Below are positions 1 through 31,026 of a DNA stretch of 32,295 nucleotides, in pieces. Made by a program: the position numbers and the translations under genes. Under the pieces are notes generated by a model. The model was not told the DNA's origin, made no database searches, and was given only the letters and a program-made list of their open reading frames with translations. Source of the DNA: an uncultured Candidatus Saccharibacteria bacterium (GTDB lineage: Bacteria > Patescibacteriota > Minisyncoccia > Minisyncoccales > PWPS01); assembly GCA_964557305.1 (NCBI GenBank), contig CAZKZM010000068.1, forward strand, positions 1-32,295. The letters run 5' to 3'. The stretch's first letter is position 1. Every line of letters starts with the position of its first letter.

Positions 1-159
1 GCCCTAAGATTGAAAAACATAGAACGGTTAGGGCAAGTTGAGTGTGCAAAAAAAATGAAAACATCACAAAGCACTTTTCAAAGGATTCTTTCTTCTGCAC
101 ACAAAAAGACAACAGAAGCACTAATCCAAGGAAAGGCGATTAAAATAAATAAAAATTAA
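1..159 (+). CDS. C-terminal fragment of a DUF134/UPF0251-type small HTH protein (5' end outside window)
   Basis: Frame 1 is open from nt 1 to TAA at 157-159. It reads ALRLKNIERLGQVECAKKMKTSQSTFQRILSSAHKKTTEALIQGKAIKINKN. From memory this matches the DUF134 tail pattern (MGVSRxTFxRxLxxARxKVAxALxxGKAIxI). Confidence 0.55.
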   Translation, partial: ALRLKNIERLGQVECAKKMKTSQSTFQRILSSAHKKTTEALIQGKAIKINKN

Positions 160-215: not shown

Positions 216-818
216 ATGATTTACGATATTACACAAGAAGAAGTAGATAGAATTTTAAATGAAAAGGGAGACGTTAGAGGAGTTGTTTTTAAAACGGACT
301 ACTTGTTTGTTTTGAATAGATTTGGAGAAGAAGGAGTTAAAAAAGTAGAAGAAGAGATGAAGAGGATGGGGTGTCCGTTTGATTATGAAAAACAAGCGAT
401 TAATATGAGTTTTTATCCTATCGGGATGAGAGTTATCTCGCTTATCGCGATAAGTAATGTTTTTAATTTTGGTAAAGAAGAGGTTGTTGAGATGGGGAGG
501 ACTGCTCCAAAATTTTCAATGATAGTAAAGTTTTTTATAGGATACTTTCTTTCCATTGAAAGTGTTTTTGAGAAAGCAGGGAGTATGTGGGAGAAACACT
601 ACACTGCGGGTTATCTTGAATCAGCAGAAATTAATGAAAAAGAACAGTATGTGATAATAAGGGTTCACGAAACCAATCTTCACCCTATTTTTTGTGATTA
701 TCTTTGCGGGTACTTCTCCTCAATTGTTAAAATGGCAACAGGAAAAGATATTCAAGCAGAAGAAAAAAAGTGCACTCACAAAGGAGATGATTATCATGAA
801 ATTATTTTAAAATGGTAG
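216..818 (+). CDS. V4R/DUF2378-like small-ligand-binding protein
   Basis: 200-aa ORF. The C-terminal pattern FCDYLCGYFSSIVKMATGKDIQAEEKKCTHKGDDYH fits the V4R signature C-x4-G...G...E-x2-C-x3-G. The stop overlaps the start of the next ORF (ATGGTAG). Confidence 0.5.
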   Translation: MIYDITQEEVDRILNEKGDVRGVVFKTDYLFVLNRFGEEGVKKVEEEMKRMGCPFDYEKQAINMSFYPIGMRVISLIAISNVFNFGKEEVVEMGRTAPKFSMIVKFFIGYFLSIESVFEKAGSMWEKHYTAGYLESAEINEKEQYVIIRVHETNLHPIFCDYLCGYFSSIVKMATGKDIQAEEKKCTHKGDDYHEIILKW

Positions 819-1372
819 ATGAAAAACAAAAAATAGAAACTCTTTTGCAGGATATGCAGTCACTTGAAGGATACATAAAGGATCTTTTTTCTTTTACACC
901 TACTCCTCTTTGTTTTGTAAGTCCGATAGGAGTTATTTTAGAAGTTAATCCTGCTTTTTCAAAGATTGTGAAATGCGAAGAAAACGAACCAATTGGTGAC
1001 AACCTATCTATTTTTGTTGATGAAAATTATCTGAAAGGTTTTTTAGAAAGAGCTATTAATGGAGAAGTAATTAACGGAGAAGAAACAGTCATTAAAAATA
1101 AAAAAGAAGAAGAGGTTCCGGTTCTTATCTTCGCAAAAGCAAGAAAAACTGAAGATCAAGAGATGGTAAACGGAGTTTTTATCTCTTTTTTTGACTTAAC
1201 AGAGATAAAAAAGAAAGAAGAAGAGGCCGAAAAAAGCAAAAAGAAACTTGAAGAAAAAGTAGAAGAGATGGAAAAATTTAACAAACTTGTTGTTGGAAGA
1301 GAGATAAAAATGACGGAACTCAAAGAAAGAATAAGAGAACTTGAAGAAAAAATTGGAAAGATGAGGCAGTAA
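812..1372 (+). CDS. PAS-domain protein with C-terminal coiled-coil GRE-motif tail and no output domain
   Basis: 186 aa. PAS-like core (PLCFVSPIGVILEVNPAFSKIVKCEENEPIG...GVFISFFDLTEIKKKEEE). The tail is EKFNKLVVGREIKMTELKERIRELEEKI. It is translationally coupled to 216-818. Confidence 0.75.
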   Translation: MVDEKQKIETLLQDMQSLEGYIKDLFSFTPTPLCFVSPIGVILEVNPAFSKIVKCEENEPIGDNLSIFVDENYLKGFLERAINGEVINGEETVIKNKKEEEVPVLIFAKARKTEDQEMVNGVFISFFDLTEIKKKEEEAEKSKKKLEEKVEEMEKFNKLVVGREIKMTELKERIRELEEKIGKMRQ

Positions 1373-3595: not shown

Positions 3596-4126
3596 ATGAG
3601 AAAGAAAACTTTTTTATTAAAAACTTTACTTTTCTGTTTTTTGTTTGTTTCGTTTTTTTCTTTTGTTAATGCTGACTTTCAAACACTTCAAAATTTAAAG
3701 ATTGAAAGAGAAAGAATAAAAACAATAAAAGAATCAGTTGATTATCTTATAAGGTTTTCAGAAGAAGAAAGAAATGATCAAGATATAACTGAAACATTAA
3801 AAGATATAAAAATTGTCACTAAAAGCATTGAACAAGAAGTTGAAGAAAAAATAGAAGCTGAAACAAGAGAGATAGTAGAGTGTTTAAGCCGAGAAGAGCT
3901 TGTAATTTATGGTTTTAAAGGATGCGCTGGTTGTGATGAACTTATGGATCAGTTTGGTGATTATGACTTTTTAGACCTTATTTATGTAGAGTGCTCAGAT
4001 GAAGTAGGGCGGTGTTTAAGCGAAATGAAAGATCCCTATGTTCCAGAAATACAGATAAAACAAGAGGCCTATCAAGGAGTCAATACTATTTATTTTTTAG
4101 GAAAAGCAACGGGGTGCATTTTTTAA
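3596..4126 (+). CDS. Secreted thioredoxin-like oxidoreductase (VKOR-associated Trx-like type)
   Basis: Signal peptide (LLFCFLFVSFFSFVNA/D) and a coiled linker. The C-terminal domain is CAGC...YVEC...RC...YVPEIQI...GC, paralogous to 11302-11730. Confidence 0.6.
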   Translation: MRKKTFLLKTLLFCFLFVSFFSFVNADFQTLQNLKIERERIKTIKESVDYLIRFSEEERNDQDITETLKDIKIVTKSIEQEVEEKIEAETREIVECLSREELVIYGFKGCAGCDELMDQFGDYDFLDLIYVECSDEVGRCLSEMKDPYVPEIQIKQEAYQGVNTIYFLGKATGCIF

Positions 4127-4140
4127 GTTAATAATAAAAT

Positions 4141-5904
4141 ATGATTGATCAGATTATTATTAGTGTAGTTATTATTGCAACACTTGTTTTTTTCATAACA
4201 GGAAAGTGGAGATATGATATTGTTGCTTTGCTTTCTCTTTTTACAGTTGCTTTTTTGGGCTTAATCCCATTAGATGAAATTTTTTTGGGATTTGTTGATC
4301 CAGTAGTAATACTTGTTGTTGCAATGTTGATAATAAGTAGTGCTCTTATTTCTTCTGGCGCGATTGATTTTATTGCTAAAAATCTCAAATTTGCAGGGAC
4401 AAGCCCTATTCTTCAACTACTTGTTCTTACAACCTTTACTGCGATTCTTTCAGCTTTTATAAACAGTATGGGAGCGTTGGCTTTTGTTATTCCGATTGCG
4501 GTGAAGATGGCAAAACAAAGCAACACCTCTCTTTCTTTGTTTTTGATGCCACTCGCTTTTGCTTCTCACTTTGGAGGAGGAGTAACTCTTATCGGATCAG
4601 TTTCTAATATTATTATTTCTGAATTCAGAGCAGGGGAGATTGCCCCTTTTAATTTTTTTGATTTTGCATCAGTAGCACTTCCAATCGCTTTAATAAGTAT
4701 TATTTTTGTTGCTCTTATTGGTTGGCGGTTAATTCCAAAAAGAGAAGGAGCTCTTTCTCAAGAAGAAGCACTTGGAGGATATATAACTGAAGTAAAAGTT
4801 GCTGAAAACTCTCCCGTAATTGGGAAAACAATTGAAGAGTTTTACGCTTTTTGTAAAGAGTATTTTGGTGTTTTTGCGTTAATAAGAAGTGGTAGTTTTA
4901 TGCCAGACCCGTCTCCTTTTACTGTTCTTAAAGAGGGAGATGTTTTGGCATTAGAAATTGATTCGGGTGCTCTTGAATCAATATCTGTCACAGCAAATAT
5001 GGAGCTTCTTCACAAAAAGCCGATTAAAGACAGTGAAGATTATCTTAAAAATCTTGAAATAACAGAAGTTGTTGTTTCAAAAAACTCTCCACTTATTGGA
5101 GAAACAGCAAAAGATTATAACTTAAGAGATAGTTATCGGGTAAACTTGCTTGCTCTTCGTCGTTCGGATTTGAAAATAAGAGAGCGGATTGGTGATGTTC
5201 AGTTTCGTTCTGGAGATGTTCTTATAATTCAAGGACATCCTCAAAGGATAGGCAAATTTATAAAAAGATTTGAGCTTCTTTTGCTAAAAGAAAGAAACTT
5301 TAATTTTGAAGGAAAAAAAGAATCAGCAATCGCTGCTTCTTTAATATTTTTAGGGGCAATTTTGATTTCAGTTTTTAGTACCGTACCAATACATATTATT
5401 TTTGCGGGAGCAGCATTGGCGATGATCACTATCGGGCTTATATCTCCATTAAAAATGTATAAGTCGGTTGACTTTTCAATGATTGTTCTTATTGCAGTTA
5501 TGATTCAGTTAGGAAAGATTTTTTATGAGACAGGGGCGGCCTCGTCTTTAGCGTCTTTGTTCTTTTTGGGGGATTTAGCTTCTCCAGAAGTTGCACTGGC
5601 AATTATTCTTTTGGTGAGTATTCTTTTTTCTGATATTCTTAGTAATGTGACGGTTGCAATTCTTCTTGCTCCAGTTGCTCTTTCTGTTGCAAACAGCTTT
5701 GGAGTATCTCCTGATCCTTTTTTTATTGCAGTTGCAATCGGATCAGGGTCATCTTATCTTACTCCGATCGGACACCAGTCAAATATTTTTGTAATGGGAG
5801 TGGGAGGATATAAGTTTAAAGATTACTGGAGGTTAGGGCTTCCGTTAGAAATAATCACCTTTGTTGTTGGCTTTTTCCTTATTCTTCATTTTTGGCAGTT
5901 TTAA
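4141..5904 (+). CDS. SLC13/DASS-type permease with two central TrkA-C (RCK_C) domains
   Basis: 587 aa with multi-TM N- and C-terminal halves. There are two internal soluble repeats: ITEVKVAENSPVIGKTIEEF and ITEVVVSKNSPLIGETAKDYNLRDSYRVNLLALRR. Confidence 0.8.
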   Translation: MIDQIIISVVIIATLVFFITGKWRYDIVALLSLFTVAFLGLIPLDEIFLGFVDPVVILVVAMLIISSALISSGAIDFIAKNLKFAGTSPILQLLVLTTFTAILSAFINSMGALAFVIPIAVKMAKQSNTSLSLFLMPLAFASHFGGGVTLIGSVSNIIISEFRAGEIAPFNFFDFASVALPIALISIIFVALIGWRLIPKREGALSQEEALGGYITEVKVAENSPVIGKTIEEFYAFCKEYFGVFALIRSGSFMPDPSPFTVLKEGDVLALEIDSGALESISVTANMELLHKKPIKDSEDYLKNLEITEVVVSKNSPLIGETAKDYNLRDSYRVNLLALRRSDLKIRERIGDVQFRSGDVLIIQGHPQRIGKFIKRFELLLLKERNFNFEGKKESAIAASLIFLGAILISVFSTVPIHIIFAGAALAMITIGLISPLKMYKSVDFSMIVLIAVMIQLGKIFYETGAASSLASLFFLGDLASPEVALAIILLVSILFSDILSNVTVAILLAPVALSVANSFGVSPDPFFIAVAIGSGSSYLTPIGHQSNIFVMGVGGYKFKDYWRLGLPLEIITFVVGFFLILHFWQF

Positions 5905-5906
5905 TT

Positions 5907-6527
5907 ATGTTTTTCAAAAAAAGTATTATAAAAATAAGAGATGTTGAGTTCCAAGAACCAAATGCTATTGATAAAGCGTTAGACAGATTTTTTCTATTTG
6001 CACTTCCAAAGTTTGTCACTCCTAATCATCTTACAATTCTTAGATACATCACTGTTCCAATTGTTTTCTTTCTTCTACTTTATCAGTACTACTTCTGGGG
6101 CTTGCTTCTTTTTGTATTTTCAGCGTTTACTGACGCCCTTGATGGTGCATTAGCAAGAACAAGAAGAAAGATAACGAACTGGGGAAAGATTAATGATCCG
6201 TTAGCAGACAAACTTTTAATAGGATTTTCAGGATTAGTTATTGTCAGTAAGTATATAGGATTAGAAATTATTACAGTAATTATTGTTCTTGAGTTGTTAA
6301 CAATTGTTGCTGCTTTGATTTTTTATGAAAAGAAAGAAAACACAGGAGCAAAACTTCCAGGAAAGATAAAGATGGTTTTTCAGTCATTGGGAGTGGGATT
6401 TCTTCTTGTTTATGCTGTTCAGGGCGTTCCAGCTATCTTATTAACAGCTACCATTTTTTTATACATATCAATATTTTTTAGTATATTTAATCTCTTGTTT
6501 TGTTTGTTTATTTCAAAGTCAATATAA
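5907..6527 (+). CDS. CDP-alcohol phosphatidyltransferase family protein
   Basis: Perfect D-x2-DG-x2-AR-x8-G-x3-D-x3-D motif (DALDGALARTRRKITNWGKINDPLAD) in a polytopic membrane protein. ATG at 5907 is preferred over TTG at 5892. Confidence 0.9.
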   Translation: MFFKKSIIKIRDVEFQEPNAIDKALDRFFLFALPKFVTPNHLTILRYITVPIVFFLLLYQYYFWGLLLFVFSAFTDALDGALARTRRKITNWGKINDPLADKLLIGFSGLVIVSKYIGLEIITVIIVLELLTIVAALIFYEKKENTGAKLPGKIKMVFQSLGVGFLLVYAVQGVPAILLTATIFLYISIFFSIFNLLFCLFISKSI

Positions 6528-6566
6528 AAAATGCCACAAGTATTAACTTGTGGCATTTTGTTTTTC
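6525..6566. terminator. Bidirectional terminator between convergent genes
   Basis: 11-bp stem atgccacaagt / acttgtggcat (6531-6541 and 6546-6556), loop atta, flanked by A6 and a T-rich run. Confidence 0.8.
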
Positions 6567-6574
6567 TATCTTTA

Positions 6575-7567
6575 CTATTTTTCTTTGTATCTTTCTATCT
6601 CTTCTTTTAGATTTCTAATCTCTTCTTTTAACTCTATCATTCTGTTTTCTCTTCCCATCGTTAGGCGGTGGAACTTTTCAAGCTCAGTCACTCTGTTTTG
6701 CAACTCTTTTGTCCTTTCTTGAATCTTTCCCTCCAATCCTTTATTTAACTCTTCAAGTTCTTTTGTTCTTTCTTGGACTTTTATTTCAAGGGATTTTTTT
6801 GTTTCTTGAAGTTCAGATTCTGACTTTTTAAGAACTTTGTTCTGCTCTTTAACACGAGTATAGTTGCTTTTAAGATCTCCCGCCAACTTGTTTAAGGTTT
6901 TTGCTAAGGTTCCTATCTCATCTTTTGTTGGAACTTCAATCCGATGATCAAGATCTCCCTTTCCCATAATCTCAGCACCATCAGACACCTTCTTTAAAGG
7001 ATTAAGAACAATAATTTTTATAATCCAAAAAGAAGCGAAGATGTCCCCAAAAAGAAGTAGTGCTCCAAGAATCCATATTAGTTTAATCTGGACATCTAAA
7101 AACTCTTGATACTTTTTGTCAGAAAGATAAAACTTTACCTCTCCTAATCTTCTTGGTTCTTGGTCAATTGGTTTGTAGATAACAGTGGAAGTAAAAACAT
7201 CACCGCACTTAGTGCAATTGGAGATGTCTTCTCTTTTTTCTTCATCTACTGTGTCAGAAACATAATCAGCAACAATTTTATCTTTGTGATAAATTTCTAT
7301 TGCCAGTATCTGATCAGAATCTTGCCTTCCGACATAATTAACAGAAAGCTGAAGTGCTGGATAGTTGTATGAAAGAAGATCTTCAATGCAAAAATCAGAA
7401 AGCGCAGCTGCCATTGAGTTTCCGTATGTTTCTACTTGACTTTGGATTATGTCTCCAGTTTGACTGATCTGAAGATATAAAGCAATGACAAGAAAAAATA
7501 AAACTTCTATTCCAACCGCTCCAAGCAGTTTCACCTTCAATGAAAAAGGCTTTTTTAATGGTTTCAT
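6575..7567 (-). CDS. Membrane sensor: TM, extracytoplasmic domain, TM, HAMP, then coiled-coil GRE-motif tail with no output domain
   Basis: 330 aa. HAMP segment NPLKKVSDGAEIMGKGDLDHRIEVPTKDEIGTLAKTLNKLAGDL. Duplicated V/I-QERTKEL heptads are followed by LEKFHRLTMGRENRMIELKEEIRNLKEEI at the C-terminus. Confidence 0.8.
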   Translation of the reverse strand: MKPLKKPFSLKVKLLGAVGIEVLFFLVIALYLQISQTGDIIQSQVETYGNSMAAALSDFCIEDLLSYNYPALQLSVNYVGRQDSDQILAIEIYHKDKIVADYVSDTVDEEKREDISNCTKCGDVFTSTVIYKPIDQEPRRLGEVKFYLSDKKYQEFLDVQIKLIWILGALLLFGDIFASFWIIKIIVLNPLKKVSDGAEIMGKGDLDHRIEVPTKDEIGTLAKTLNKLAGDLKSNYTRVKEQNKVLKKSESELQETKKSLEIKVQERTKELEELNKGLEGKIQERTKELQNRVTELEKFHRLTMGRENRMIELKEEIRNLKEEIERYKEK

Positions 7568-7579
7568 TTTTCTTTTTTA

Positions 7580-8617
7580 TTACTTTCCCCAAGCGTCAAG
7601 ATCGTAAAAAACTTCTCCGTGAACACGATCAATTGCTTCTTTTACTGGGAGATAATCTTCAATGCTAACTGCAACGAATTTGTTATAGCCAGCATCAACT
7701 CTTTCGTGAATAAGAGGATCAACTTCGTAAGAAGCAAGAATAGCACTTCTTACCTCTTCTATCTGTTCATCAGAAAGTACGCTTCTGTTAGCTAAAATTG
7801 GAAACTCTGGAACAGGGGCATGACGCCAGATTGATCTTATCTCAGCTCCGTCTTCAACAAACTTTCCCATTGTTTGTTCGTTAACAAAAGCAGCGTCAAC
7901 ATTACCTCTTATGAGGTTTTCTAATGCTTTGTCATGAGATCCAAGATAATTTAATCCACCATCTGCAAAAAAGGTTGTAGCGTCTATTCCTTCTTCAAGA
8001 AGCATTCCTTCCGGCATCAAACCTCCTGATGTTGAAGAGATACTTGTTCCGGCAACTTTTTTTCCTTCAAGATCCCAAACACTTTGATATGGTGAATTTT
8101 CAAGAACAACAAGATCTCCTTGGTATGTTGGAGATCCGGTGTATCTTTCTCCACAAGCGATAACTTCCATATCATCTTCAATATTACCGTAGGCCTGTAT
8201 TGTAGTGACAGGAGCTAAAAAAACGAGCCCAACCTCTCCTTCTACAAAATCTTTTACTACTGCGGTGTATCCTCCAAGTTCACCTTCAGTAGGGTAGAAC
8301 TTCATCTCTATATTAAGATCAGTGGATTCGTTCAGGTAATTTTCAAGAGCCCCAAAGCGATTAAGCATTTCAGATGGGTTTTGAAGAGGGAGAACACCCA
8401 TATAGACTACTTCCTCTTCTTCGTCTTCTCCTTCTTCTTCAGCTGGGGTAATAGGTGCTATTGGCTTGACTGGCTCTTCTTTAACAACAAAAAAGACCAA
8501 AGCTGCGATCAAAATTATAATCGCTAAAACAACAACCCCTCCGAGAATAAACTTTTTGGGATCTTGCTTTGACTCTTCTTCATATTCGTAATTATTAATT
8601 GTGTTTTCTTCTTCCAT
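7580..8617 (-). CDS. Membrane-anchored PhnD-like (phosphonate-type) substrate-binding protein
   Basis: N-terminal TM anchor, acidic linker (EEEGEDEEEE), then a PhnD/PF12974-like fold (YMGVLPLQNPSEMLNRFGALENYL...GEVGLVFLAPV). It ends 12 nt upstream of the HAMP sensor gene. No ABC permease or ATPase genes are nearby. Confidence 0.7.
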   Translation of the reverse strand: MEEENTINNYEYEEESKQDPKKFILGGVVVLAIIILIAALVFFVVKEEPVKPIAPITPAEEEGEDEEEEVVYMGVLPLQNPSEMLNRFGALENYLNESTDLNIEMKFYPTEGELGGYTAVVKDFVEGEVGLVFLAPVTTIQAYGNIEDDMEVIACGERYTGSPTYQGDLVVLENSPYQSVWDLEGKKVAGTSISSTSGGLMPEGMLLEEGIDATTFFADGGLNYLGSHDKALENLIRGNVDAAFVNEQTMGKFVEDGAEIRSIWRHAPVPEFPILANRSVLSDEQIEEVRSAILASYEVDPLIHERVDAGYNKFVAVSIEDYLPVKEAIDRVHGEVFYDLDAWGK

Positions 8618-8760
8618 ATTTTTATTTAATTTAATTTAATTTTTTAATCTCGACCTTTTTAAAATAATCTCTAAAGATTTATATATTTTCATAATAGTTA
8701 ATTTTTATATTTTATGCAAATATTTTTATTTTTTTATTATTATGTGTTATATTTTAAGTT

Positions 8761-10050
8761 GTGGACAAGAGCAAGATAAAAAAAATAACAGTTGTTTTTC
8801 TGGTAGCAATTTTTTTAATTACTGCTATCTTTGCTTTTTTTATTTTTTATTTTGAAACTTTAACTCCGCCAGTTCATATTTCCGCAGAGCCATTATCTTA
8901 TAGTGAAATACTTGTTTCTTGGGAAGAAGACGAAAAAAGCAAACATTATAATGTTTACAGATCAACAGATCAAGATAGTTCTTATCTTAAAATAGGAAAC
9001 ACAAAAAAAGGAGAGTATATAGACAAAGATCTTAGTCCGAGTACGGCTTATTACTACAAGGTGACAAAAGTTATTGATTATGAAGAGAGTGAGTTTAGTT
9101 CAAGAGCAACTGCATTTACAAAACCGATGATGCCAACAGGATTAGAAGCATCTTCTGAAGATTTTCAAGAGACGATGCGCCTTCAGGTTAATTTGAGTTG
9201 GAACTACTCTTTTGTTGCTGACAGATATAATATTTACAGATCTCTTCAAAAAGAAGGGCCTTATGAAAAAATAGAAGAAGCAAGCATTGAAAGTTATTCT
9301 GACAATAATATTGAGCCAGAAACGACTTACTATTATACGATTACACAGGTTGCAAATAACACCGAAAGCGTTTATAGTGATGTTGTAGAAGTTTTAACAT
9401 CTGAAGAGTGGCTTTGTGGTGATGTTATTAGTTATGGAGGAAAAGATTATGAAACAGCAATAATCGGATCAAGGTGCTGGTTTAAAGAAAACTTAAATAT
9501 TAGTGAAAAGGATGTTGATTACAACTGCACGGTTGAAAAAAACTGCTACTGGAATAAAGAAGAAAATTGTGATACTTACGGAGGACTTTATGACTTTTCT
9601 TCTGCTTCGTGCAATGAAAAGAAAGAAGGAACAAGAGGAATCTGTCCCACTGGATGGCGAATTCCTACTGATGATGACTGGTCTGATCTTGAAGTTGCAG
9701 CAGGAATGAGTGAAGAAGAAACAGAAAAGTACGGATATCGTGGAGACAACGAGGCCAGTAAAATTTCTAATGGATATGACTTGTGGCTTCCGGGAGAACT
9801 GAGAGAAGATGAAGATTTCTCGTCTCTTTCTTTTAATATTTTTCCGGGAGGATATGCAACTTGGCGAGCGGATGGAGGAGGAGAAACAGTTTTTCTGTGG
9901 TCATCAACTTCGTCAAATGAAGATCCTGACTGTGGACTTAGAGAAGATGGGTATAGAATAAGAATAATAGATTATAATAATAAGAAGATAAAATTAAGTT
10001 GCTTTGCAGAGGACAATATGGCTTATGTTCGCTGTGTAAGACCTTTATAA
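8761..10050 (+). CDS. Membrane-anchored surface protein: 2x fibronectin type III plus a FISUMP (Fibrobacter succinogenes major paralogous, TIGR02145-like) domain
   Basis: GTG start and a TM anchor. FN3 signatures YNVYRS...YYYKVT and YNIYRS...YYYTIT. The Cys-rich C-terminus is CWFKENLN...YGGLYDF...CPTGWRIPTDDDWSDLE. Confidence 0.8.
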   Translation: MDKSKIKKITVVFLVAIFLITAIFAFFIFYFETLTPPVHISAEPLSYSEILVSWEEDEKSKHYNVYRSTDQDSSYLKIGNTKKGEYIDKDLSPSTAYYYKVTKVIDYEESEFSSRATAFTKPMMPTGLEASSEDFQETMRLQVNLSWNYSFVADRYNIYRSLQKEGPYEKIEEASIESYSDNNIEPETTYYYTITQVANNTESVYSDVVEVLTSEEWLCGDVISYGGKDYETAIIGSRCWFKENLNISEKDVDYNCTVEKNCYWNKEENCDTYGGLYDFSSASCNEKKEGTRGICPTGWRIPTDDDWSDLEVAAGMSEEETEKYGYRGDNEASKISNGYDLWLPGELREDEDFSSLSFNIFPGGYATWRADGGGETVFLWSSTSSNEDPDCGLREDGYRIRIIDYNNKKIKLSCFAEDNMAYVRCVRPL

Positions 10051-10051
10051 T

Positions 10052-11287
10052 ATGAATATTCAAAAAATAAAAGAATTAGCTTTAAATAATAAAAAGATAC
10101 TGCTTTTTATCTTGGGAGGATTTTTTGTTCTTTTACTTTTAGTTTTAATTCTTGTTTTTCGTTCTTCTGAGATAACCCCTCCCTTTGATATTCGTGCCCA
10201 AGCAAGAGATTATGATAAAGTAAATCTTACTTGGCTTGATGAGAATAGTGGAGAAGAGTACAATATATATCGTTCATTTTCTTTGAAAGATGGTTATGAA
10301 AAGATTGAAACAGTAGAAGACAGACATTATCTTGACTGGGGACTTGAACCAGAAACAAATTATTATTACAAAATAACAGCGGTTAAAAAAGGAAAAGAAA
10401 GTGATTTTAGTTCAGTTGCCCAAGTGCTCACTGAAAAAGTTGGAGAAGTAGAGAACTTAACCGTTGATGAAGTTGGTAGTAGTTATGTTAAAATATCGTG
10501 GGAAGGGTTTAGAGACAGCAAGGGGTATATAATATATCGAACAGAAGACGTCAACAAGCCGTATTCAAGAGTCGGATCAACAAACAACACTTACTATATT
10601 GACACTGAGCTTGAGAGTGATAAGGTCTATTATTATGCCGTTTCTCAGATTGTAAATGGAAAAGAAAGCGAGTATAGTAATCAACACTTAGAAGTAAAAA
10701 CAGAGTACTACTGGTTTTGTGGATATGCCGTTAGTTATCAAGGAGAGTTATATGACACTGTTAATATTGGAGAGCAGTGTTGGTTTAGTAAAAACTTAAA
10801 TTATCCAACAGCAACGGGAAGTTGGTGTTATGACGATGATGTTGAAAATTGTGCTCTTTACGGAAGGTTGTATGATTTTGAAACAGCGGTTGGTGAAGAA
10901 GATGATATTTGTCCTGAGGGATGGAGAGTTCCAACAGACGATGATTTTATAAAGTTAGAAAAAAAGATGGGCGTTGATGAAGTGGAAGTTAATAATCAAG
11001 AGTGGAGAGGAGGAGAAAGAAGCATCGGAGACAAGTTGAAAGCAAAAGAATACTGCTCACAAGCAGATAGCCGTTTTTGTGAAGCAGTTGATCTTCTCGT
11101 TGAGATGGGAGGATTTAAAGAAAAAGATGGAAAGTTTTCATATCTTGGAACACGCTCTTTTTTCTGGACCTCGGACTTGGTTGAGGATTTTGTGTTAATT
11201 CGTGGTTTTGGAAAAGAAAAAGCTGGTATTTACCGAGGGCTTGAAAGCAAAGAAGCGGGTCTTTTTGTAAGATGTATTAAAAATTAA
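10052..11287 (+). CDS. Paralog of 8761-10050: TM anchor, 2x FN3, FISUMP domain
   Basis: Same architecture: YNIYRS...YYYKIT, YIIYRT...YYYAVS, CWFSKNLN...YGRLYDF...CPEGWRVPTDDDFIKLE. It starts 2 nt after the previous stop. Confidence 0.8.
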   Translation: MNIQKIKELALNNKKILLFILGGFFVLLLLVLILVFRSSEITPPFDIRAQARDYDKVNLTWLDENSGEEYNIYRSFSLKDGYEKIETVEDRHYLDWGLEPETNYYYKITAVKKGKESDFSSVAQVLTEKVGEVENLTVDEVGSSYVKISWEGFRDSKGYIIYRTEDVNKPYSRVGSTNNTYYIDTELESDKVYYYAVSQIVNGKESEYSNQHLEVKTEYYWFCGYAVSYQGELYDTVNIGEQCWFSKNLNYPTATGSWCYDDDVENCALYGRLYDFETAVGEEDDICPEGWRVPTDDDFIKLEKKMGVDEVEVNNQEWRGGERSIGDKLKAKEYCSQADSRFCEAVDLLVEMGGFKEKDGKFSYLGTRSFFWTSDLVEDFVLIRGFGKEKAGIYRGLESKEAGLFVRCIKN

Positions 11288-11301: not shown

Positions 11302-11730
11302 ATGATGAACAATATTTTAGCCGTTTTATTTGGGATAGCTTTAATTGGAGGAAGCGTTCTTTATGTTAATTTGGAAAAAGTTGAAGAAGAAGAACAACAA
11401 GAACAACAAGAACAAGAACAAGCAGAGAGTGAAGCTCCAGAAGAAAGCTTGGTAGATGAAGAAGCGCTTGCTTCTTTAGTTGATTGCTTGAAAGAGAAAA
11501 AAGTTGTTGCTTACGGATCAAGAACTTGTCCACACTGCCTTAATCTTGTAGAAAGTTTTGGTGGTTACGATATTATAGATCCTATTTATGTTGAGTGTAG
11601 TGGAGGGGATGAAAGATGCCAGACAGATAAACAAACAGGATATGTTCCAGAAATTCAGATAGACAGTGAGCTTTATCAAGGAGAAAGATCTCCTAAGGCG
11701 ATAGCAAAAGTTGCGGGTTGCGATTTTTAA
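11302..11730 (+). CDS. Membrane-anchored thioredoxin-like oxidoreductase (paralog of 3596-4126)
   Basis: TM anchor and an E/Q-rich linker. The C-terminal domain is CPHC...YVEC...RC...YVPEIQI...GC with all six Cys positions shared with 3596-4126. Confidence 0.65.
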   Translation: MMNNILAVLFGIALIGGSVLYVNLEKVEEEEQQEQQEQEQAESEAPEESLVDEEALASLVDCLKEKKVVAYGSRTCPHCLNLVESFGGYDIIDPIYVECSGGDERCQTDKQTGYVPEIQIDSELYQGERSPKAIAKVAGCDF

Positions 11731-14536: not shown

Positions 14537-14564
14537 ATAAAAAATCAAAAGTAAAAACTGATAA

Positions 14565-14632
14565 TTGACCTTTGACTTTTGACATTTAACTTTTGACCGT
14601 CATTCTCGCTTCACTCTTGTCATTCCCGCCCT
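14565..14632. repeat. TGAC-rich array followed by two GTCATTC(C/T)CGC half-units
   Basis: The sequence is ttgacctttgacttttgacatttaacttttgac, then gtcattctcgc, then gtcattcccgcc. The same families occur at 17094-17276, 18237-18476 and 19086-19120. Confidence 0.85.
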
Positions 14633-14884
14633 GACGATATTTTTGTTCGTTGGGGAGGAGATGAGTTTGTTCTCATTCTTCCAGAGACAACCCATCAGCA
14701 AGCCAAAAAGCTTGCCTTGAGAATTGAAGAAGAAGTCAGAAAAAAACAACTTCTTGTAAAGTTCTCATACGGGATTGTTGAAAAGAAAAAAGAGCAAAGC
14801 AAGGAAAAAGACCTCGCACTGCTCATTGAAAAAGTCAGCAGGAGAATGCAGGTCGAAAAAAATAAAAAAAAAGAAACAAAGTAA
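14627..14884 (+). pseudogene. 5'-truncated diguanylate cyclase (GGDEF domain) remnant with no start codon
   Basis: The frame reads RPDDIFVRWGGDEFVLILPETTHQQAKKLALRIEEEVRKKQLLVKFSYGIVEKKKEQSKEKDLALLIEKVSRRMQVEKNKKKETK*. This covers an I-site-like RxxD, GGDEF and the C-terminal half of the domain. The N-terminal half is absent, and the upstream sequence is the repeat element. Confidence 0.8.
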
Positions 14885-14886
14885 AA

Positions 14887-14911
14887 GGGGGCCGACACAA
14901 AATCGGCCCCC
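14887..14911 (+). terminator. GC-rich hairpin downstream of the GGDEF remnant
   Basis: Stem gggggccga / tcggccccc (9 bp) with loop cacaaaa. It lies 2 nt after the TAA. Confidence 0.6.
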
Positions 14912-14928
14912 TCATCCTTATTACTCAA

Positions 14929-14959
14929 CCATTTTTACACCCCTGGGGTGTAAAAATGG
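14929..14959. repeat. Palindromic repeat, copy 1 (CCATTTTTACACCCC-T-GGGGTGTAAAAATGG)
   Basis: Perfect palindrome centred on nt 14944. It ends 5 nt from the topA stop codon. Further copies are at 17327-17361 and 27818-27852. Confidence 0.9.
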
Positions 14960-14963
14960 GGGG

Positions 14964-27503: not shown

Positions 27504-27812
27504 ATGAGTAAAAATATATTTTCTACAAAAAAACAAGCAGTTGAGGCAAGAAAGTGTTTTGATTGTGGGTGTGACATAAAGATTGAAGATAAAGACATTA
27601 AAAATGGAGTTCTCTTAGAGTATGAAGATAACGACGAGCAACTTTTTGCGATGAAGTGTGACGATTGTTACAAAAAAAACGAAGGAATCTCTAATTACAA
27701 AAAGTGCGAAGTTTACTCAAGAATAGTAGGATATCTCCGTCCAGTTCAAAACTATAATCCAGGCAAAAAACAAGAGTACGAAGAAAGAAAGGAATACACT
27801 GCAAAGGTGTAA
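27504..27812 (+). CDS. Stand-alone NrdD C-terminal module: Cys4 ribbon plus glycyl-radical loop
   Basis: 102 aa with CFDCG...CDDC, then EVYSRIVGYLRPVQNYNPGKKQEYEERKEY, the class III RNR glycyl-radical signature. It starts 10 nt after the nrdD stop, in a different frame. Confidence 0.85.
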   Translation: MSKNIFSTKKQAVEARKCFDCGCDIKIEDKDIKNGVLLEYEDNDEQLFAMKCDDCYKKNEGISNYKKCEVYSRIVGYLRPVQNYNPGKKQEYEERKEYTAKV

Positions 27813-28909: not shown

Positions 28910-28940
28910 GTGCCGACTTTTCAGTCGGCACTTTTGTTTT
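28910..28940 (+). terminator. Rho-independent terminator after nrdG
   Basis: Stem gtgccgac / gtcggcac with loop ttttca, followed by ttttgtttt. Confidence 0.8.
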
Positions 28941-28995
28941 GACTTTTATTTTATTTGTTTTATTATTAAGTAATATCAATATAATTTTTTTATAT

Positions 28996-29664
28996 ATGAA
29001 GATTTTATTTGTTTCTTACTCAAGAACAGGAAATACTCAAAAAACAACGGAGAAAATAAAAAAAGAGTTAAAAGAACGAGGACACGAAGTAGTTACAGAA
29101 AAAATTAAATTAAAAAAAGAGCTTGAATCAAGGTGGTTAGTTCTTTTTGATATAAAAGTGACACTTAGTTACTTTTTGGGGCTTGCCTTGAGAAAAGACA
29201 TTTTACCCAGAAGAGAAATTGAGCCAGTTTCTTTTCCAAACATATCACAGTTTGACAGAGTTTGTATAACAACTCCCAAGTGGGGCAGTGTTCCTCCACA
29301 GATATGTAAATATATTGATATTGTTGAAGGATTGGAAGGAAAAAAAGTTGCTGTTTTTTCCTCTTACTACTGTCCTCCCTATAAATACATTGAGTTGAAG
29401 GCGATTTTTGGACCGTTAAAGAAAATGATAAGCAAAAAACAAGGAGAAGTGACTGTAATGATGGGTGCGACTACCGATTTTCTTGAAAGAGGAATTAAAT
29501 CGTTTAAAGCAGTAATATGGATTCTTAATCTGGTCAGGTTTGGAAAGCCATTTCCAAAAGATTGGCGAGACAGATCACCATACTTTATATCAGAAAAGTT
29601 TAAACCAGTAGCTCCTTACAAGGAAGAAGCGATCAAGTTGTTTTGTGATAAAATTGAAAATTAA
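28996..29664 (+). CDS. Flavodoxin-like fold protein
   Basis: MKILFVSYSRTGNTQKTTEKIKKEL is an FMN-loop-like N-terminus, and ITTPKWGSVPP is a second loop. ATG at 28996 is preferred over the upstream alternative start at 28939. Confidence 0.65.
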   Translation: MKILFVSYSRTGNTQKTTEKIKKELKERGHEVVTEKIKLKKELESRWLVLFDIKVTLSYFLGLALRKDILPRREIEPVSFPNISQFDRVCITTPKWGSVPPQICKYIDIVEGLEGKKVAVFSSYYCPPYKYIELKAIFGPLKKMISKKQGEVTVMMGATTDFLERGIKSFKAVIWILNLVRFGKPFPKDWRDRSPYFISEKFKPVAPYKEEAIKLFCDKIEN

Positions 29665-29676
29665 AAAAAATAAAAG

Positions 29677-31026
29677 ATGAAAATTTTAGTTGCTTACTAC
29701 TCCCGTACAAAAGGAACAGAAAAATTAGCAGATGTTTTGATTAAAAAAATTAGAGATTCAGGACATTCTGTTGATGTTGAAAAAATAAAACCACAAAAAG
29801 AACACAGTTGGTTTTTTTGGTTTTTTATTAGAATCTTTAAAGGAAGTTGCAAGATTAAACCCTTGAAAATTAAAACAGCAGAAGATTATGATCTGGTTTT
29901 AGTTGGAAGTCCTAACTGGACGCGAGTTTCCTTGCCAGTGGGAGGATATATCAAAGAAGTGAAAGGAATAAGATACAGAAATGTTGCGCTTTTTTCTACT
30001 ACTTTTGCTCCTCCTGCTCTTGAGTGGTATATTCTTTCAGCATACTTGCTTGATCTGAGTTTTGCGAAGATGGTTGAGAGAAAACACGGGAGAGTGGTTG
30101 ATTATCTTATTCTTTCAAGTTTTTTTAAAAAATGGAGTTTTGAATCTGATTATGGAGAGAATATGATCAGTGATTTTTGTAAAAAAATTACTTCTCCGAT
30201 AACTTCTTTTAAAAAATACTTTTTAAGACAAAAAGAAGTTGACAATCTTCGCTTTTTAGCGGTCTTAACCTCATTTTTCTTTTTTTCAAGTATTTTTGCA
30301 GTAGCTTTTTTGAAAGTTATTAATATTGACATTTCTTGGGAAGATTACCTTTGGATCGGGATTGTTCTTTTCTTAACTTTTATTCTTTTAACCCTTGTTC
30401 GGGACAACAAAAGATTTTTCTTTTTAGCAAAATATATTCCAAGCGTTTCGTTTGTTTTTCTTTGGACAATGCTTGTTTCTCACTTTGCATTAGATTTAGG
30501 GACGGGGCGTTTAATGATATTAGGATATATTTTTATTTTCGTTCTTTTTTCTTCTTTTCGTGACGAAAAAGTGGTTGCTTTTTCAGGAGCGTTTACTCTT
30601 TTGTCGTATGTTTTTTTGTTTTATTTTTCGCTAGAAAAACAAGTTTTTAATTTGTTTTTAGATATGTCTTTGATATTTGCCAGTTGTGTTCTCTTTATTA
30701 TCTTTACCAACACTTTTCGTGAGTATTACCTGACTTTATTAAACTCTCAAGATGAAGTTGAAAAATCACGAAAAGGATTAGAAGAAAAAGTTAAAATAAA
30801 AACAAAAGAGTTGAAAGAGCTGAACGAAAACCTAGAAAAAGAAGTTGAAAAAAGAACTGAAAAAATAAAAGAGCAGAGCACTGACTTAGAAAAGAAAGTA
30901 AACCACTTAGAAAAGTTCAACAAACTAACGATTGGAAGAGAGAACCGAATGAAAGAATTAAAAGAAGAGATAGAAACACTAAAAAAAGAAAAACAAGAGT
31001 TGGAAGAAAAGTTAAATGAAAAATAA
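29677..31026 (+). CDS. Fusion protein: flavodoxin-like domain, about 6 TM helices, then coiled-coil GRE-motif tail
   Basis: The N-terminus MKILVAYYSRTKGTEKLADVLIKKI...LVGSPNWTRVSLP is paralogous to 28996-29664. The middle 190 aa or so are hydrophobic. The tail is LEEKVKIKTKELKELNENLEKEVEKRTEKI...LEKFNKLTIGRENRMKELKEEIETLKKE. Confidence 0.75.
   Translation: MKILVAYYSRTKGTEKLADVLIKKIRDSGHSVDVEKIKPQKEHSWFFWFFIRIFKGSCKIKPLKIKTAEDYDLVLVGSPNWTRVSLPVGGYIKEVKGIRYRNVALFSTTFAPPALEWYILSAYLLDLSFAKMVERKHGRVVDYLILSSFFKKWSFESDYGENMISDFCKKITSPITSFKKYFLRQKEVDNLRFLAVLTSFFFFSSIFAVAFLKVINIDISWEDYLWIGIVLFLTFILLTLVRDNKRFFFLAKYIPSVSFVFLWTMLVSHFALDLGTGRLMILGYIFIFVLFSSFRDEKVVAFSGAFTLLSYVFLFYFSLEKQVFNLFLDMSLIFASCVLFIIFTNTFREYYLTLLNSQDEVEKSRKGLEEKVKIKTKELKELNENLEKEVEKRTEKIKEQSTDLEKKVNHLEKFNKLTIGRENRMKELKEEIETLKKEKQELEEKLNEK

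What the first reader, a model, noticed from the sequence alone, without database searches (positions are those of the whole stretch)
6575..8617. Membrane-tethered PhnD-like binding protein paired with a HAMP/coiled-coil sensor and no transporter
The two genes are 12 nt apart on the minus strand and end at a strong bidirectional terminator (6525-6566). The binding protein has the phosphonate-type SBP fold but no ABC permease or ATPase partner in the window. The downstream protein has a roughly 130-aa extracytoplasmic loop containing a C-x2-C, a HAMP domain and the GRE-motif tail. SBP-dependent sensing is established for several kinases and chemoreceptors. An SBP feeding a HAMP protein that has no transmitter domain is not a described architecture as far as I know.
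Basis: partly seen in the sequence, partly recalled or inferred. Interest (0 to 1): 0.7.

Follow-up and report, generated by a model that had tools for sequence, protein, structure and literature searches.

The report
Binding-protein sensor missing its kinase half
A membrane-anchored phosphonate-type binding protein and a kinase-less membrane sensor form a conserved signalling pair in tiny uncultured bacteria. The sensor ends in a widespread, apparently undescribed 40-residue tail that in most relatives sits directly upstream of a separate histidine kinase gene.

Summary
Two co-oriented genes lie 12 nt apart: a signal-anchored PF12974 (PhnD-fold) binding protein, then a TM–loop–TM–HAMP–coiled-coil protein with no transmitter. 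A 14-bp hairpin terminator follows, and the window has no ABC transporter genes.

The binding protein belongs to a CPR/DPANN clade. In all 17 other fetched loci with readable downstream DNA, its gene precedes a sensor with the same periplasmic loop and HAMP. That sensor is fused to a histidine kinase, fused to an MCP signalling domain, or ends in the "GRE" tail.

The tail (ELEKFhrLTVGRELKMIELK) is a portable C-terminal module. It marks 11,795 protein clusters, always on sensor-type domains and never on kinase or cyclase domains. In 48 of 68 species-level loci a kinase gene starts within 1.5 kb downstream, often overlapping, followed by receiver genes.

So the protein is most likely the input half of a split, binding-protein-dependent two-component sensor. 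In this lineage the kinase is not nearby. Two more tail proteins and a V4R-like accessory gene lie in the same window.

No Pfam, NCBIfam, PDB or literature match to the tail was found. It is a new variant of a known kind, and the tail–kinase contact is inferred, not shown.

The parts
7580..8617 (-). Gene for the signal-anchored PhnD-fold (PF12974) solute-binding protein, 345 aa
   Evidence: ORF. Pfam PF12974 E 1.1e-44. AF2 model pLDDT 86; Foldseek best hits are PtxB, PhnD, ArrX (TMt 0.87) and AioX.
8483..8554 (-). N-terminal hydrophobic signal-anchor of the binding protein (residues ~22-45). There is no lipobox Cys.
   Evidence: Hydropathy window 19-51. AF2 helix 20-45. That it is an uncleaved anchor is inferred.
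8411..8482 (-). Acidic, disordered tether (residues ~46-69) between the anchor and the binding domain
   Evidence: pLDDT <50 for residues 47-65. The sequence is EEPVKPIAPITPAEEEGEDEEEEV.
7583..8410 (-). Two-lobe binding domain (residues 70-345). The oxyanion half-site is Y117, Y165, S195-T196-S197 and H228. F272 and L78 stand where phosphite binders have the capping Tyr and Asp.
   Evidence: Alignment to PtxB 5o2j. Clade conservation. Residue roles taken from PMC5700983 and PMC5908839.
6575..7567 (-). Gene for the transmitter-less sensor (TM-loop-TM-HAMP-coiled coil-tail), 330 aa
   Evidence: ORF. HAMP. AF2 model. 332 homologues, of which all 120 listed carry the C-terminal tail motif (109 by strict regex, 11 single-residue variants).
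7082..7459 (-). Extracytoplasmic loop domain (residues ~37-162): two helices plus a four-stranded sheet, with the motif LLS[YW][ND]YPALQL. Proposed docking site for the binding protein.
   Evidence: AF2 secondary structure. Foldseek hits to LapD/CdgS9 periplasmic domain 4u64 (TMt 0.59) and HK sensor 4onx. The same loop occurs in all sensors paired with this SBP clade.
7205..7216 (-). C118-x2-C121 in the loop
   Evidence: Positions. Conserved only in close relatives and in L089; absent in L005, L090 and L091.
6869..7009 (-). HAMP domain (residues 187-233)
   Evidence: Pfam PF00672 E 1.8e-12.
6704..6868 (-). Coiled-coil stalk with two ERTKEL (signalling-helix-like) repeats (residues 234-288)
   Evidence: Sequence. 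Conserved columns in A2. Continuous helix 217-329 in the model.
6602..6703 (-). Conserved C-terminal tail (residues 289-322): ELEKFHRLTMGRENRMIELKEEI...
   Evidence: Tail profile finds 11,795 representative proteins at E<=1e-3, almost all at the C-terminus.
6528..6559 (.). Bidirectional intrinsic-terminator hairpin shared with the convergent CDP-alcohol phosphatidyltransferase gene
   Evidence: 14-bp stem, 4-nt loop, T-runs on both sides.
8618..8760 (-). AT-rich divergent intergenic region upstream of the pair; candidate promoter TTTGCA-18-TATTAT at 8720-8691
   Evidence: Consensus scan only. Sequence. Function not shown.
216..818 (+). V4R-like 200-aa accessory protein. It is the orthologue of the gene that lies between sensor-tail and kinase genes in many relatives.
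   Evidence: 45% identity to L059 8363-8968. Found in 27 fetched loci, including SBP|HAMP-tail|V4R-like|HK operons L094-L098. Weak Pfam V4R hit, E 7e-4, below cut-off.
812..1372 (+). PAS-tail protein (186 aa). Its PAS is homologous to the N-terminal PAS of the kinases of related operons, but it ends in the tail instead of a kinase core.
   Evidence: 37% identity, E 6e-32, to L059 kinase residues 7-163. Tail.
29677..31026 (+). Flavodoxin-like + multi-TM + tail protein (449 aa). Its membrane part is homologous to the N-terminal membrane part of the kinase in the L005 operon.
   Evidence: 35% identity, E 4e-26, to L005 kinase residues 24-173. Tail.

Best explanation
The two genes encode the extracytoplasmic front end of a binding-protein-dependent signalling pathway.

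Proposed mechanism. The binding protein is tethered to the membrane by an uncleaved signal anchor and a flexible acidic linker. It captures a small oxyanion, a phosphonate/phosphite/arsenate-like species of unknown identity, in a PhnD-type cleft. The closed form docks on the small PAS/LapD-like periplasmic domain of the dimeric sensor. The signal crosses the membrane and passes through HAMP and a stalk of ERTKEL signalling-helix repeats to a conserved ~35-residue C-terminal tail.

The tail is not a dead end. It is a portable output module that replaces the PAS-DHp-CA transmitter of an ordinary sensor kinase and passes the signal in trans. The most likely recipient is a separately encoded HisKA/HATPase kinase, in many relatives together with a V4R-like accessory protein. 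That kinase then phosphorylates single-domain receiver proteins.

In this organism's lineage the operon has been broken up. The SBP-sensor pair stands alone. The V4R-like gene lies 5 kb away, next to a PAS protein that also carries the tail instead of a kinase core. No kinase lies within the contig.

Shown: gene structure, folds, conservation of the pairing, C-terminal position and distribution of the tail, and the polar tail-gene then kinase-gene order.

Inferred: ligand class, SBP-loop docking, tail-kinase contact, and the identity of the partner in this genome.
For: 1. SBP-sensor coupling. In the window and all 17 other CPR/DPANN loci with readable downstream DNA, the SBP gene is directly followed by a sensor with the same loop and HAMP. 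These loci are L001, L003, L005, L008, L009, L088-L092 and L094-L102. No ABC genes appear in these flanks.

2. Same input, different outputs. Residues 10-233 of the window sensor are 38% identical (E 1e-45) to the N-terminal half of the fused HAMP-PAS-HisKA-HATPase kinase of L089. Other outputs are an MCP signalling domain in L091 and the tail plus a separate kinase in L005, L090 and L094-L098.

3. SBP fold and pocket. Foldseek places the model with PtxB, PhnD, ArrX and AioX. Y117, Y165, the STS motif and H228 are conserved across the clade (residue roles from PMC5700983 and PMC5908839).

4. Tail as a module. All 120 listed homologues end in it, as do 110 of the 116 tail-HMM hits in fetched loci. 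The profile finds 11,795 representative proteins. A Pfam census of 102 of them gives only input domains: HAMP 31, PAS ~30, dCache 9, PocR 8, HisKA_7TM 5, and single or few cases of 5TMR_LYT, 6TM_PilS, GAF, flavodoxin and REC. None has HisKA, HATPase, GGDEF or MCPsignal.

5. Link to a kinase. A kinase gene starts within 1.5 kb downstream on the same strand in 48 of 68 evaluable species-level loci, against 2 of 57 upstream. Nineteen pairs overlap by 1-26 nt. Receivers follow. Pfam confirmed the assignments for sampled genes.

6. All three tail proteins of the window are homologous to N-terminal halves of real kinases in relatives.
Against: - No kinase or receiver gene is present in the 32-kb contig. 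None is present in the related contigs L001, L003, L008, L009, L092 and L093. The partner in this organism is therefore unknown.
- About 29% of species-level loci lack an adjacent kinase.
- The kinases downstream of tail genes have heterogeneous N-termini. I found no universal docking motif: ALxNILED in 6 of 73 and the PAS-cap motif in 11 of 73.
- No physical or co-evolutionary evidence for tail-kinase contact was obtained, and multimer modelling was not available.
- REC-tail proteins exist (L052, L081). The tail can therefore also sit downstream of phosphorylation, which fits a general protein-interaction output better than a strictly kinase-input role.
- The ligand is unknown. The phosphite-capping Tyr is replaced by an invariant Phe.
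- Three distant SBP relatives (L103-L105, 41-42% identity, non-CPR-like or very short contigs) show no adjacent sensor.
Confidence: 0.6

Rival explanations
1. The tail signals to something other than a histidine kinase. Candidates are assembly of all tail-bearing sensors (HAMP-tail, PAS-tail, flavodoxin-TM-tail) into a hetero-oligomeric coiled-coil complex, or binding to the V4R-like protein or to another effector. Under this reading the frequent neighbouring kinase is one client among several.
For: - The window has three tail proteins and a V4R-like gene but no kinase.
- The PAS that normally heads the kinase carries a tail here.
- REC-tail proteins exist.
- Several loci hold 2-3 tail genes in a row.
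- Tail proteins and some kinases share the ERTKEL stalk repeats.
- The V4R-like gene sits between tail and kinase genes in 27 loci.
Against: - The strongly polar order, tail gene then kinase gene, holds in 48 of 68 loci, often with overlapping stop and start codons.
- The V4R-like gene is present in only about a quarter of loci.
- There is no direct evidence for tail-tail association.
Confidence: 0.25
2. The HAMP protein is a decayed or truncated sensor kinase, a pseudogene remnant, and the pair is no longer functional.
For: - It equals the N-terminal half of fused kinases of relatives.
- No kinase is nearby.
Against: - Length and tail are conserved from 98% down to ~30% identity in hundreds of proteins.
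- The tail occurs in 11,795 clusters across bacteria and archaea.
- The gene ends at a strong terminator with no kinase-like sequence downstream.
- The pair is kept intact in seven contigs of the lineage: the window, L001, L003, L004, L008, L009 and L092.
Confidence: 0.03
3. The binding protein is an ordinary ABC (or other) transporter component whose permease and ATPase are encoded elsewhere, and its adjacency to the sensor is incidental or secondary (dual use).
For: - NCBI and JGI annotate it as a phosphonate ABC transporter SBP.
- It just passes the TIGR01098 subfamily cut-off (115 vs 112 bits).
- Many SBPs serve both transport and signalling (review PMC8050422).
- A CitMHS/TrkA_C anion permease gene lies 0.7 kb away, at 4141-5904.
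Against: - It is far below the PhnD equivalog cut-off (108 vs 261 bits).
- The clade is separated from canonical PhnD/PtxB by a gap from E 1e-50 to 1e-9.
- All 17 other CPR/DPANN loci with readable downstream DNA pair it with a sensor bearing a co-conserved loop, and none has phnC/phnE-like genes in 6-10 kb flanks.
- The CitMHS gene is not conserved next to the pair in L001 and L003.
Confidence: 0.1

Closest known systems
AioX-AioS-AioR (and ArxX/ArrX) arsenic oxyanion sensing
   Same: A PF12974/PhnD-fold periplasmic binding protein with no transporter is encoded next to a membrane sensor that has a small sCache-like periplasmic domain. Ligand-bound SBP is thought to activate the sensor (PMC5908839, PMC8050422). 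The model of the window SBP superposes on ArrX (TMt 0.87) and AioX (0.77-0.78). The Tyr/Tyr/Ser-x-Ser/His half-site is shared.
   Different: AioS is a complete histidine kinase; the window sensor has no DHp or catalytic domain and ends in the tail. The window SBP is membrane-anchored, belongs to a separate CPR/DPANN clade, and has clade-specific pocket residues (F272, L78, C155, H266). Its ligand is unknown. No arsenic genes are nearby.
Chemoreceptor-CheW-CheA signalling, including SBP-dependent Tar/Trg-type sensing
   Same: It works like a minimal chemoreceptor: a TM receptor with a periplasmic domain, HAMP and a long coiled coil, with no enzymatic domain, controlling a kinase encoded as a separate protein. 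JGI even labels it 'methyl-accepting chemotaxis protein'. An orthologous SBP-loop-HAMP input is fused to a true MCP signalling domain in a Woesearchaeote (L091).
   Different: There is no MCPsignal domain and no CheA or CheW. The neighbouring kinases in relatives are classical PAS-HisKA-HATPase proteins. The tail is ~35 residues, not a 4-helix hairpin tip.
Af1503 of Archaeoglobus fulgidus (receptor ending in HAMP with no output domain)
   Same: A membrane receptor with a periplasmic domain and HAMP but no recognisable transmitter. This rests on my own knowledge of Hulko et al. 2006 and was not re-read here.
   Different: As I recall it, Af1503 stops right after HAMP. The window protein continues with ~95 residues of conserved stalk and tail, and that tail defines a very large family.
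Fused SBP-dependent sensor kinases of the same clade (L088, L089, L099) and classical TorT-TorS, LuxP-LuxQ, ChvE-VirA pairs
   Same: The same SBP, the same loop and the same HAMP (38% identity over 225 residues). The general logic of an SBP docking on a kinase's periplasmic domain is reviewed in PMC8050422.
   Different: In those systems sensor and transmitter are one polypeptide. Here the polypeptide ends in the tail.
LapD-LapG and YfiN-YfiR periplasmic partner-binding sensors
   Same: The predicted loop domain resembles the LapD-type periplasmic domain (4u64, TMt 0.59). It also gives weak NCBIfam hits to YfiN/DgcN and 'HK near YfiR-like'. Both are HAMP proteins whose periplasmic domain binds a periplasmic protein rather than a small ligand.
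   Different: The partner proteins (a protease and a repressor) are unrelated to SBPs. The outputs are GGDEF/EAL domains.

Membership tests
PhnD/PtxB-type phosphonate ABC transporter binding protein | PF12974 two-lobe fold | tested here: met
   Pfam E 1.1e-44. Foldseek PtxB/PhnD E ~1e-22, TMt 0.77-0.82.
PhnD/PtxB-type phosphonate ABC transporter binding protein | STS-H oxyanion motif and hinge Tyr | tested here: met
   S195-T196-S197, H228 and Y165 align with PtxB S124-T125-S126, H155 and Y94, and are (nearly) invariant in the clade.
PhnD/PtxB-type phosphonate ABC transporter binding protein | Capping Tyr and its Asp partner (phosphite/methylphosphonate specificity) | tested here: not met
   The aligned positions are invariant F272 and L78. 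This rests on sequence alignment only.
PhnD/PtxB-type phosphonate ABC transporter binding protein | Encoded with phnC/phnE-type ATPase and permease; reaches the curated equivalog score | tested here: not met
   No ABC genes in the window or in the flanks of the related CPR/DPANN loci. TIGR03431 scores 108 bits against a cut-off of 261.
AioX-type signalling-only SBP | PF12974 SBP encoded next to, and co-oriented with, a membrane sensor with a small periplasmic domain, without a transporter | tested here: met
   Definition from PMC5908839 and PMC8050422.
AioX-type signalling-only SBP | Arsenite-binding Cys106 and signalling loop 53-61 | not tested
   AioX did not reach the sequence-search threshold. 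No residue-level structural superposition could be made with the tools.
Sensor histidine kinase (two-component transmitter) | HisKA/DHp with phospho-accepting His plus HATPase_c | tested here: not met
   No such Pfam hit. The protein ends 8 residues after the tail. The tail profile versus the DHp profile of neighbouring kinases gives hhalign probability 0.2%.
Methyl-accepting chemotaxis protein | MCPsignal domain | tested here: not met
   Only the HAMP region matches MCP models.
HAMP-domain transmembrane receptors | TM2 followed by a HAMP four-helix unit | tested here: met
   PF00672 residues 187-233. Model helices 151-202 and 217-329. Foldseek top hit is the WalK full-length model.
Tail-bearing transmitter-less sensors (family as delimited here) | Input domain(s) plus ERTKEL stalk plus C-terminal ELEKFxxLxVGRELKMxELK motif within ~40 residues of the end | tested here: met
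Tail-bearing transmitter-less sensors (family as delimited here) | Kinase and receiver genes immediately downstream | tested here: not met
   Downstream is a terminator and a convergent gene. This holds for the whole lineage (L001, L003, L008, L009, L092). The feature is met in 48 of 68 other species.

The most novel reading that the evidence does not exclude
The conserved C-terminal tail is a previously undescribed, portable trans-signalling module. It lets many different stand-alone sensor proteins (HAMP, PAS, Cache, PocR, 7TM, flavodoxin, REC) plug into a shared soluble kinase or another common target. If so, it defines a distinct split multi-input form of two-component signalling that dominates in CPR bacteria and DPANN archaea. 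In this lineage it would operate with every known kinase-type input module carrying a tail and no kinase in sight.
Probability: 0.4. Interest if true: 0.8.

Novelty: new variant of a known kind. Interest (0 to 1): 0.62.

Why it matters
CPR bacteria and DPANN archaea have tiny genomes and very few regulators. How they sense their surroundings is largely unknown.

If the reading is right, much of their sensing runs through kinase-less sensors that share one short docking tail. One kinase could then serve many inputs, an economical design for reduced genomes.

The tail marks about 12,000 protein clusters that are currently annotated only as 'HAMP/PAS domain-containing protein' or, wrongly, as 'methyl-accepting chemotaxis protein'. 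The binding protein is wrongly annotated as an ABC transporter component.

The system also offers a natural set of matched fused and split versions of one receptor. That set could be used to study how a signal leaves a HAMP/signalling-helix stalk.

Tried and rejected
1. Tail as a degenerate H-box or DHp helix (VGRELK versus VSHELR). Profile-profile comparison with the DHp region of 73 neighbouring kinases gave probability 0.2%. A weak Pfam His_kinase hit (E 0.009, below cut-off) is not enough. Rejected.

2. Programmed frameshift or read-through fusing the tail gene to the kinase gene. The overlaps fall in both alternative frames (gaps -26, -23, -17, -11 and -8 versus -4 and -1), so there is no single recoding rule. 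Ordinary translational coupling is more likely.

3. A universal docking motif in the kinases. ALxNILED was found in 6 of 73 and the PAS-cap motif in 11 of 73. Not general.

4. Known family for the tail. Pfam, NCBIfam and PDB sequence searches with the tail alone gave nothing significant. The only recurring weak hit is the coiled-coil linker of NosR-family REC-HD-GYP regulators.

5. Fused sensor-tail-kinase proteins. The single candidate is L087 4519-6591, with the tail at residues 15-45 of a 690-aa kinase ORF. It is doubtful, because the closest database relative is called as an 80-aa protein.

6. A kinase just outside the window. A 50.9-kb contig of a >90%-identical relative was viewed only for 10 kb either side of the pair (L092). 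A 10.7-kb contig extends 2.2 kb past the third tail gene (L093). Neither shows a kinase. The part of the 50.9-kb contig lying beyond the window's right end could not be viewed.

7. Literature. Five full-text searches and the archaeal TCS census PMC5847659 gave no description of the tail or of the split arrangement. This covers the held open-access library only.

8. The CxxC as a defining feature. It is conserved only in the close clade and L089.
Full report
**1. What is there**

The window is AT-rich (about 33-36% G+C) and is an entire 32,295-nt NCBI contig (P0121 100% identical). Its closest relatives are labelled Candidatus Paceibacterota or Patescibacteria.

On the minus strand, ORF 7580-8617 (345 aa) is followed after 12 nt by ORF 6575-7567 (330 aa). 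A 14-bp-stem hairpin at 6528-6559, flanked by A and T runs, follows the second gene. It is shared with the convergent CDP-alcohol phosphatidyltransferase gene.

The first protein matches PF12974 Phosphonate-bd (E 1e-44). It barely passes the broad TIGR01098 subfamily cut-off and is far below the PhnD equivalog cut-off (108 vs 261 bits). It has a single N-terminal hydrophobic helix (residues ~20-45), an acidic disordered tether, and then the binding domain.

The second protein has two TM segments around a ~126-aa loop with C118-x2-C121. It has HAMP at 187-233 and one long helix to the end. None of the other 24 plausible genes of the window encodes an ABC ATPase or permease, a kinase or a receiver.

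**2. The binding protein is a signalling SBP**

Its homologues form a compact clade of 66 CPR/DPANN proteins (mostly 43-88% identical). There is then a gap from E 1e-50 to 1e-9 before any other PF12974 protein.

I looked at the gene neighbourhood in every locus I could fetch:
- close relatives L001, L003/L004, L008, L009 and L092;
- distant relatives L005, L088, L089, L090 and L091;
- metagenome loci L094-L102.

In all of them the next gene on the same strand is a membrane sensor with the same loop (motif LLS[YW][ND]YPALQL) and HAMP. No ABC gene lies in the 6-10-kb flanks.

The output of that sensor varies:
- fused PAS-HisKA-HATPase (L088, L089/L101, L099/L100);
- MCP signalling domain (L091, a Woesearchaeote);
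- the tail (the window, L001, L003, L005, L008, L009, L090, L092, L094-L098).

The window sensor is 38% identical (E 1e-45) over residues 10-233 to the N-terminal half of the fused kinase of L089.

Three more distant relatives (L103-L105, 41-42% identity) have no adjacent sensor. One is on a high-GC contig and two are on very short contigs. L104 has a MalK-type ABC ATPase 2.8 kb away, beyond a convergent gene. These lie outside the CPR/DPANN pattern and do not change it.

**3. Fold and pocket**

The AF2 model of the SBP (pLDDT 86) matches PtxB, PhnD, ArrX (TMt 0.87), AioX and HtxB. The residues that hold the oxyanion in PtxB, PhnD and AioX are conserved throughout the clade: lobe-1 Tyr, hinge Tyr, S-T-S and His, here Y117, Y165, S195-T196-S197 and H228.

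The phosphite-capping Tyr and its Asp partner are replaced by invariant F272 and L78. C155, H266 and E271 are clade-specific invariants. The ligand is therefore probably a tetrahedral or trigonal oxyanion, but not phosphite in the PtxB manner. Its identity is open.

The sensor model (pLDDT 81) shows a two-helix plus four-strand periplasmic domain. It resembles the LapD/CdgS9 periplasmic domain and a clostridial kinase sensor domain. The whole chain matches the full-length WalK model best. The CxxC is conserved only in the close clade.

**4. The tail**

The last ~35 residues (ELEKFHRLTMGRENRMIELKEEI...) recur at the C-terminus of two other proteins in the window. One is a 186-aa PAS protein (812-1372). 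The other is a 449-aa flavodoxin-like multi-TM protein (29677-31026).

All 120 listed homologues of the HAMP protein end in the tail (109 match the strict regex and 11 differ at one position). None has a kinase domain.

A scan of one genome per species found at least 427 relatives. Most are in Patescibacteria. Others are in DPANN and Altiarchaeota, Methanosarcinales, Omnitrophota, Geobacteraceae, Elusimicrobia and Thermodesulfovibrionia.

In the fetched loci my tail HMM hit 116 proteins of 95-1541 aa. In 110 of them the motif ends within 40 residues of the C-terminus. A 38-column profile found 11,795 representative proteins (E <= 1e-3) among 1.84 billion, and the top 150 are again nearly all C-terminal.

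A Pfam census of 102 of these gave only input domains:
- HAMP 31, PAS ~30, dCache_1 9, PocR 8, HisKA_7TM 5;
- single or few cases of GAF, flavodoxin, SBP_bac_3, 5TMR_LYT, 6TM_PilS and REC;
- no HisKA, HATPase_c, GGDEF, EAL or MCPsignal (spot checks).

Several of these input domains are otherwise known only as N-terminal parts of histidine kinases.

The tail alone has no significant match in Pfam, NCBIfam or PDB. I found no description of it in the held literature.

**5. Link to kinases**

I built HMMs from Pfam-annotated genes of L005-L007. With them, a HisKA/HATPase gene starts within 1.5 kb downstream of the last tail gene, on the same strand, in 48 of 68 evaluable species-level loci. The figure upstream is 2 of 57.

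Nineteen tail-kinase pairs overlap by 1-26 nt, and one to three single-domain receiver genes follow. SBP (PF12974 or SBP_bac_3) and FIST genes often precede the tail gene.

In 27 loci a ~200-aa V4R-like gene sits between the tail gene and the kinase gene. The full PhnD-type operon in relatives is SBP | HAMP-tail | V4R-like | PAS-kinase | REC (| REC) (L094-L098).

The most economical reading is a split sensor kinase. The tail protein is the input half, and the kinase, with or without the V4R-like protein, is the transmitter half.

**6. The peculiarity of this lineage**

In the window the operon is dismembered. The V4R-like gene (216-818) is 45% identical to that of L059. It overlaps a PAS gene whose PAS is 37% identical (E 6e-32) to the N-terminal PAS of the L059 kinase, but that gene ends in the tail rather than in PAS-DHp-CA.

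The third tail protein shares its membrane domain (35% identity, E 4e-26) with the kinase of the L005 operon. All three kinase-type input modules of this contig thus carry tails. No kinase or receiver is present here or in the related contigs viewed.

Two readings remain open. Either one kinase elsewhere in the genome serves them all, or the tail has a target other than a kinase. REC-tail proteins in other phyla show that the tail can also act downstream of phosphorylation.

**7. Ideas tested and dropped**

The following did not hold (details in the tried-and-rejected section):
- the tail as a degenerate H-box;
- recoding that fuses the tail gene and the kinase gene;
- a universal docking motif in the kinases;
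- an N-terminal tail on a kinase in L087.

**8. Comparison with known systems**

The front end works like AioX-AioS. That system also has a PF12974 SBP without a transporter next to a sensor with a small periplasmic domain (PMC5908839, PMC8050422).

As a whole the pair works like a minimal chemoreceptor. It is a catalytically inert TM-HAMP-coiled-coil receptor that controls a separate kinase. It is a member of neither family, because it lacks DHp/CA and lacks MCPsignal.

It is a member of the PF12974 fold family but fails the defining features of transport PhnD: the equivalog score, the phnCE context and the capping Tyr.

**9. Verdict**

The pair is real, conserved and not a transporter remnant. 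The 'missing transmitter' is explained, with moderate confidence, by a trans-acting kinase reached through a widespread and apparently uncharacterised C-terminal tail.

- Novelty: a new variant of a known kind (SBP-dependent two-component sensing in split form).
- Interest: 0.62.
- Confidence that the SBP-sensor pair is a dedicated sensing module: about 0.85.
- Confidence that the tail talks to a histidine kinase: about 0.55-0.6.

Noticed in passing
window 216-818 (+) and 812-1372 (+): A V4R-like 200-aa gene overlaps by 7 nt a 186-aa PAS-tail gene. In relatives the same V4R-like gene precedes a PAS-HisKA-HATPase kinase with a homologous PAS. Here the kinase core seems to have been replaced by the tail. 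The V4R-like family has no Pfam or NCBIfam model (only a sub-threshold V4R hit). It carries conserved Cys/His motifs (HPI.C..Y.GYF and C..KG..YHE).
   Followed up: partly
window 29677-31026 (+), with 28939-29664 (+) upstream: The third tail protein has an N-terminal flavodoxin-like part, a multi-TM domain homologous to the membrane part of the L005/L090 kinases, then stalk and tail. The gene just upstream (241 aa) also gives a weak flavodoxin-like hit. A ComEC-like gene follows.
   Followed up: partly
L090 6994-8034; P0019: Some SBP-paired HAMP-tail proteins carry a Cys-rich 'two-CW' domain (NCBIfam NF045718, sub-threshold) after the tail. This is one of the few cases where the tail is not terminal.
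   Followed up: no
L016, L053, L057, L062 (between the tail and kinase genes): The V4R-like gene occurs in two or three tandem copies in some Patescibacteria operons.
   Followed up: no
L043, L064, L082, L087: In archaeal and some other tails the motif continues as ...ELKKEINALLEELGKEPRY..., an extended variant with a conserved G-x-x-P-x-Y after the helix.
   Followed up: no
window 23537-27493 (+) and 27504-27812 (+): The anaerobic ribonucleotide reductase NrdD gene is interrupted by an intein with a LAGLIDADG endonuclease. A separate 102-aa ORF follows that matches the C-terminal end of NrdD. The same arrangement is seen in L093.
   Followed up: no
window 3596-4126 (+) and 11302-11730 (+): Two paralogous small secreted or anchored proteins share a thioredoxin-like C-terminal part (CxxC ... 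YVECS ... YVPEIQI ... GC.F). No Pfam hit.
   Followed up: no
window 8761-10050 (+) and 10052-11287 (+): Tandem paralogues with fn3 plus Fibrobacter succinogenes major domain, divergent from the SBP gene. They are conserved next to the pair in L001 and L092 but not in L003, so probably not functionally linked.
   Followed up: partly
window 4141-5904 (+): A CitMHS/Na-sulfate-symporter-type anion permease with two TrkA_C domains lies 0.7 kb from the pair on the convergent side. It is kept in L092 but absent in L001 and L003. It could be a coincidental neighbour or a lineage-specific target.
   Followed up: partly
L001 1640-2134 (-): An 82%-identical relative has a stand-alone 164-aa GGDEF gene between topA and the RNase R gene. 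The window lacks it at the syntenic place (14537-14963).
   Followed up: no
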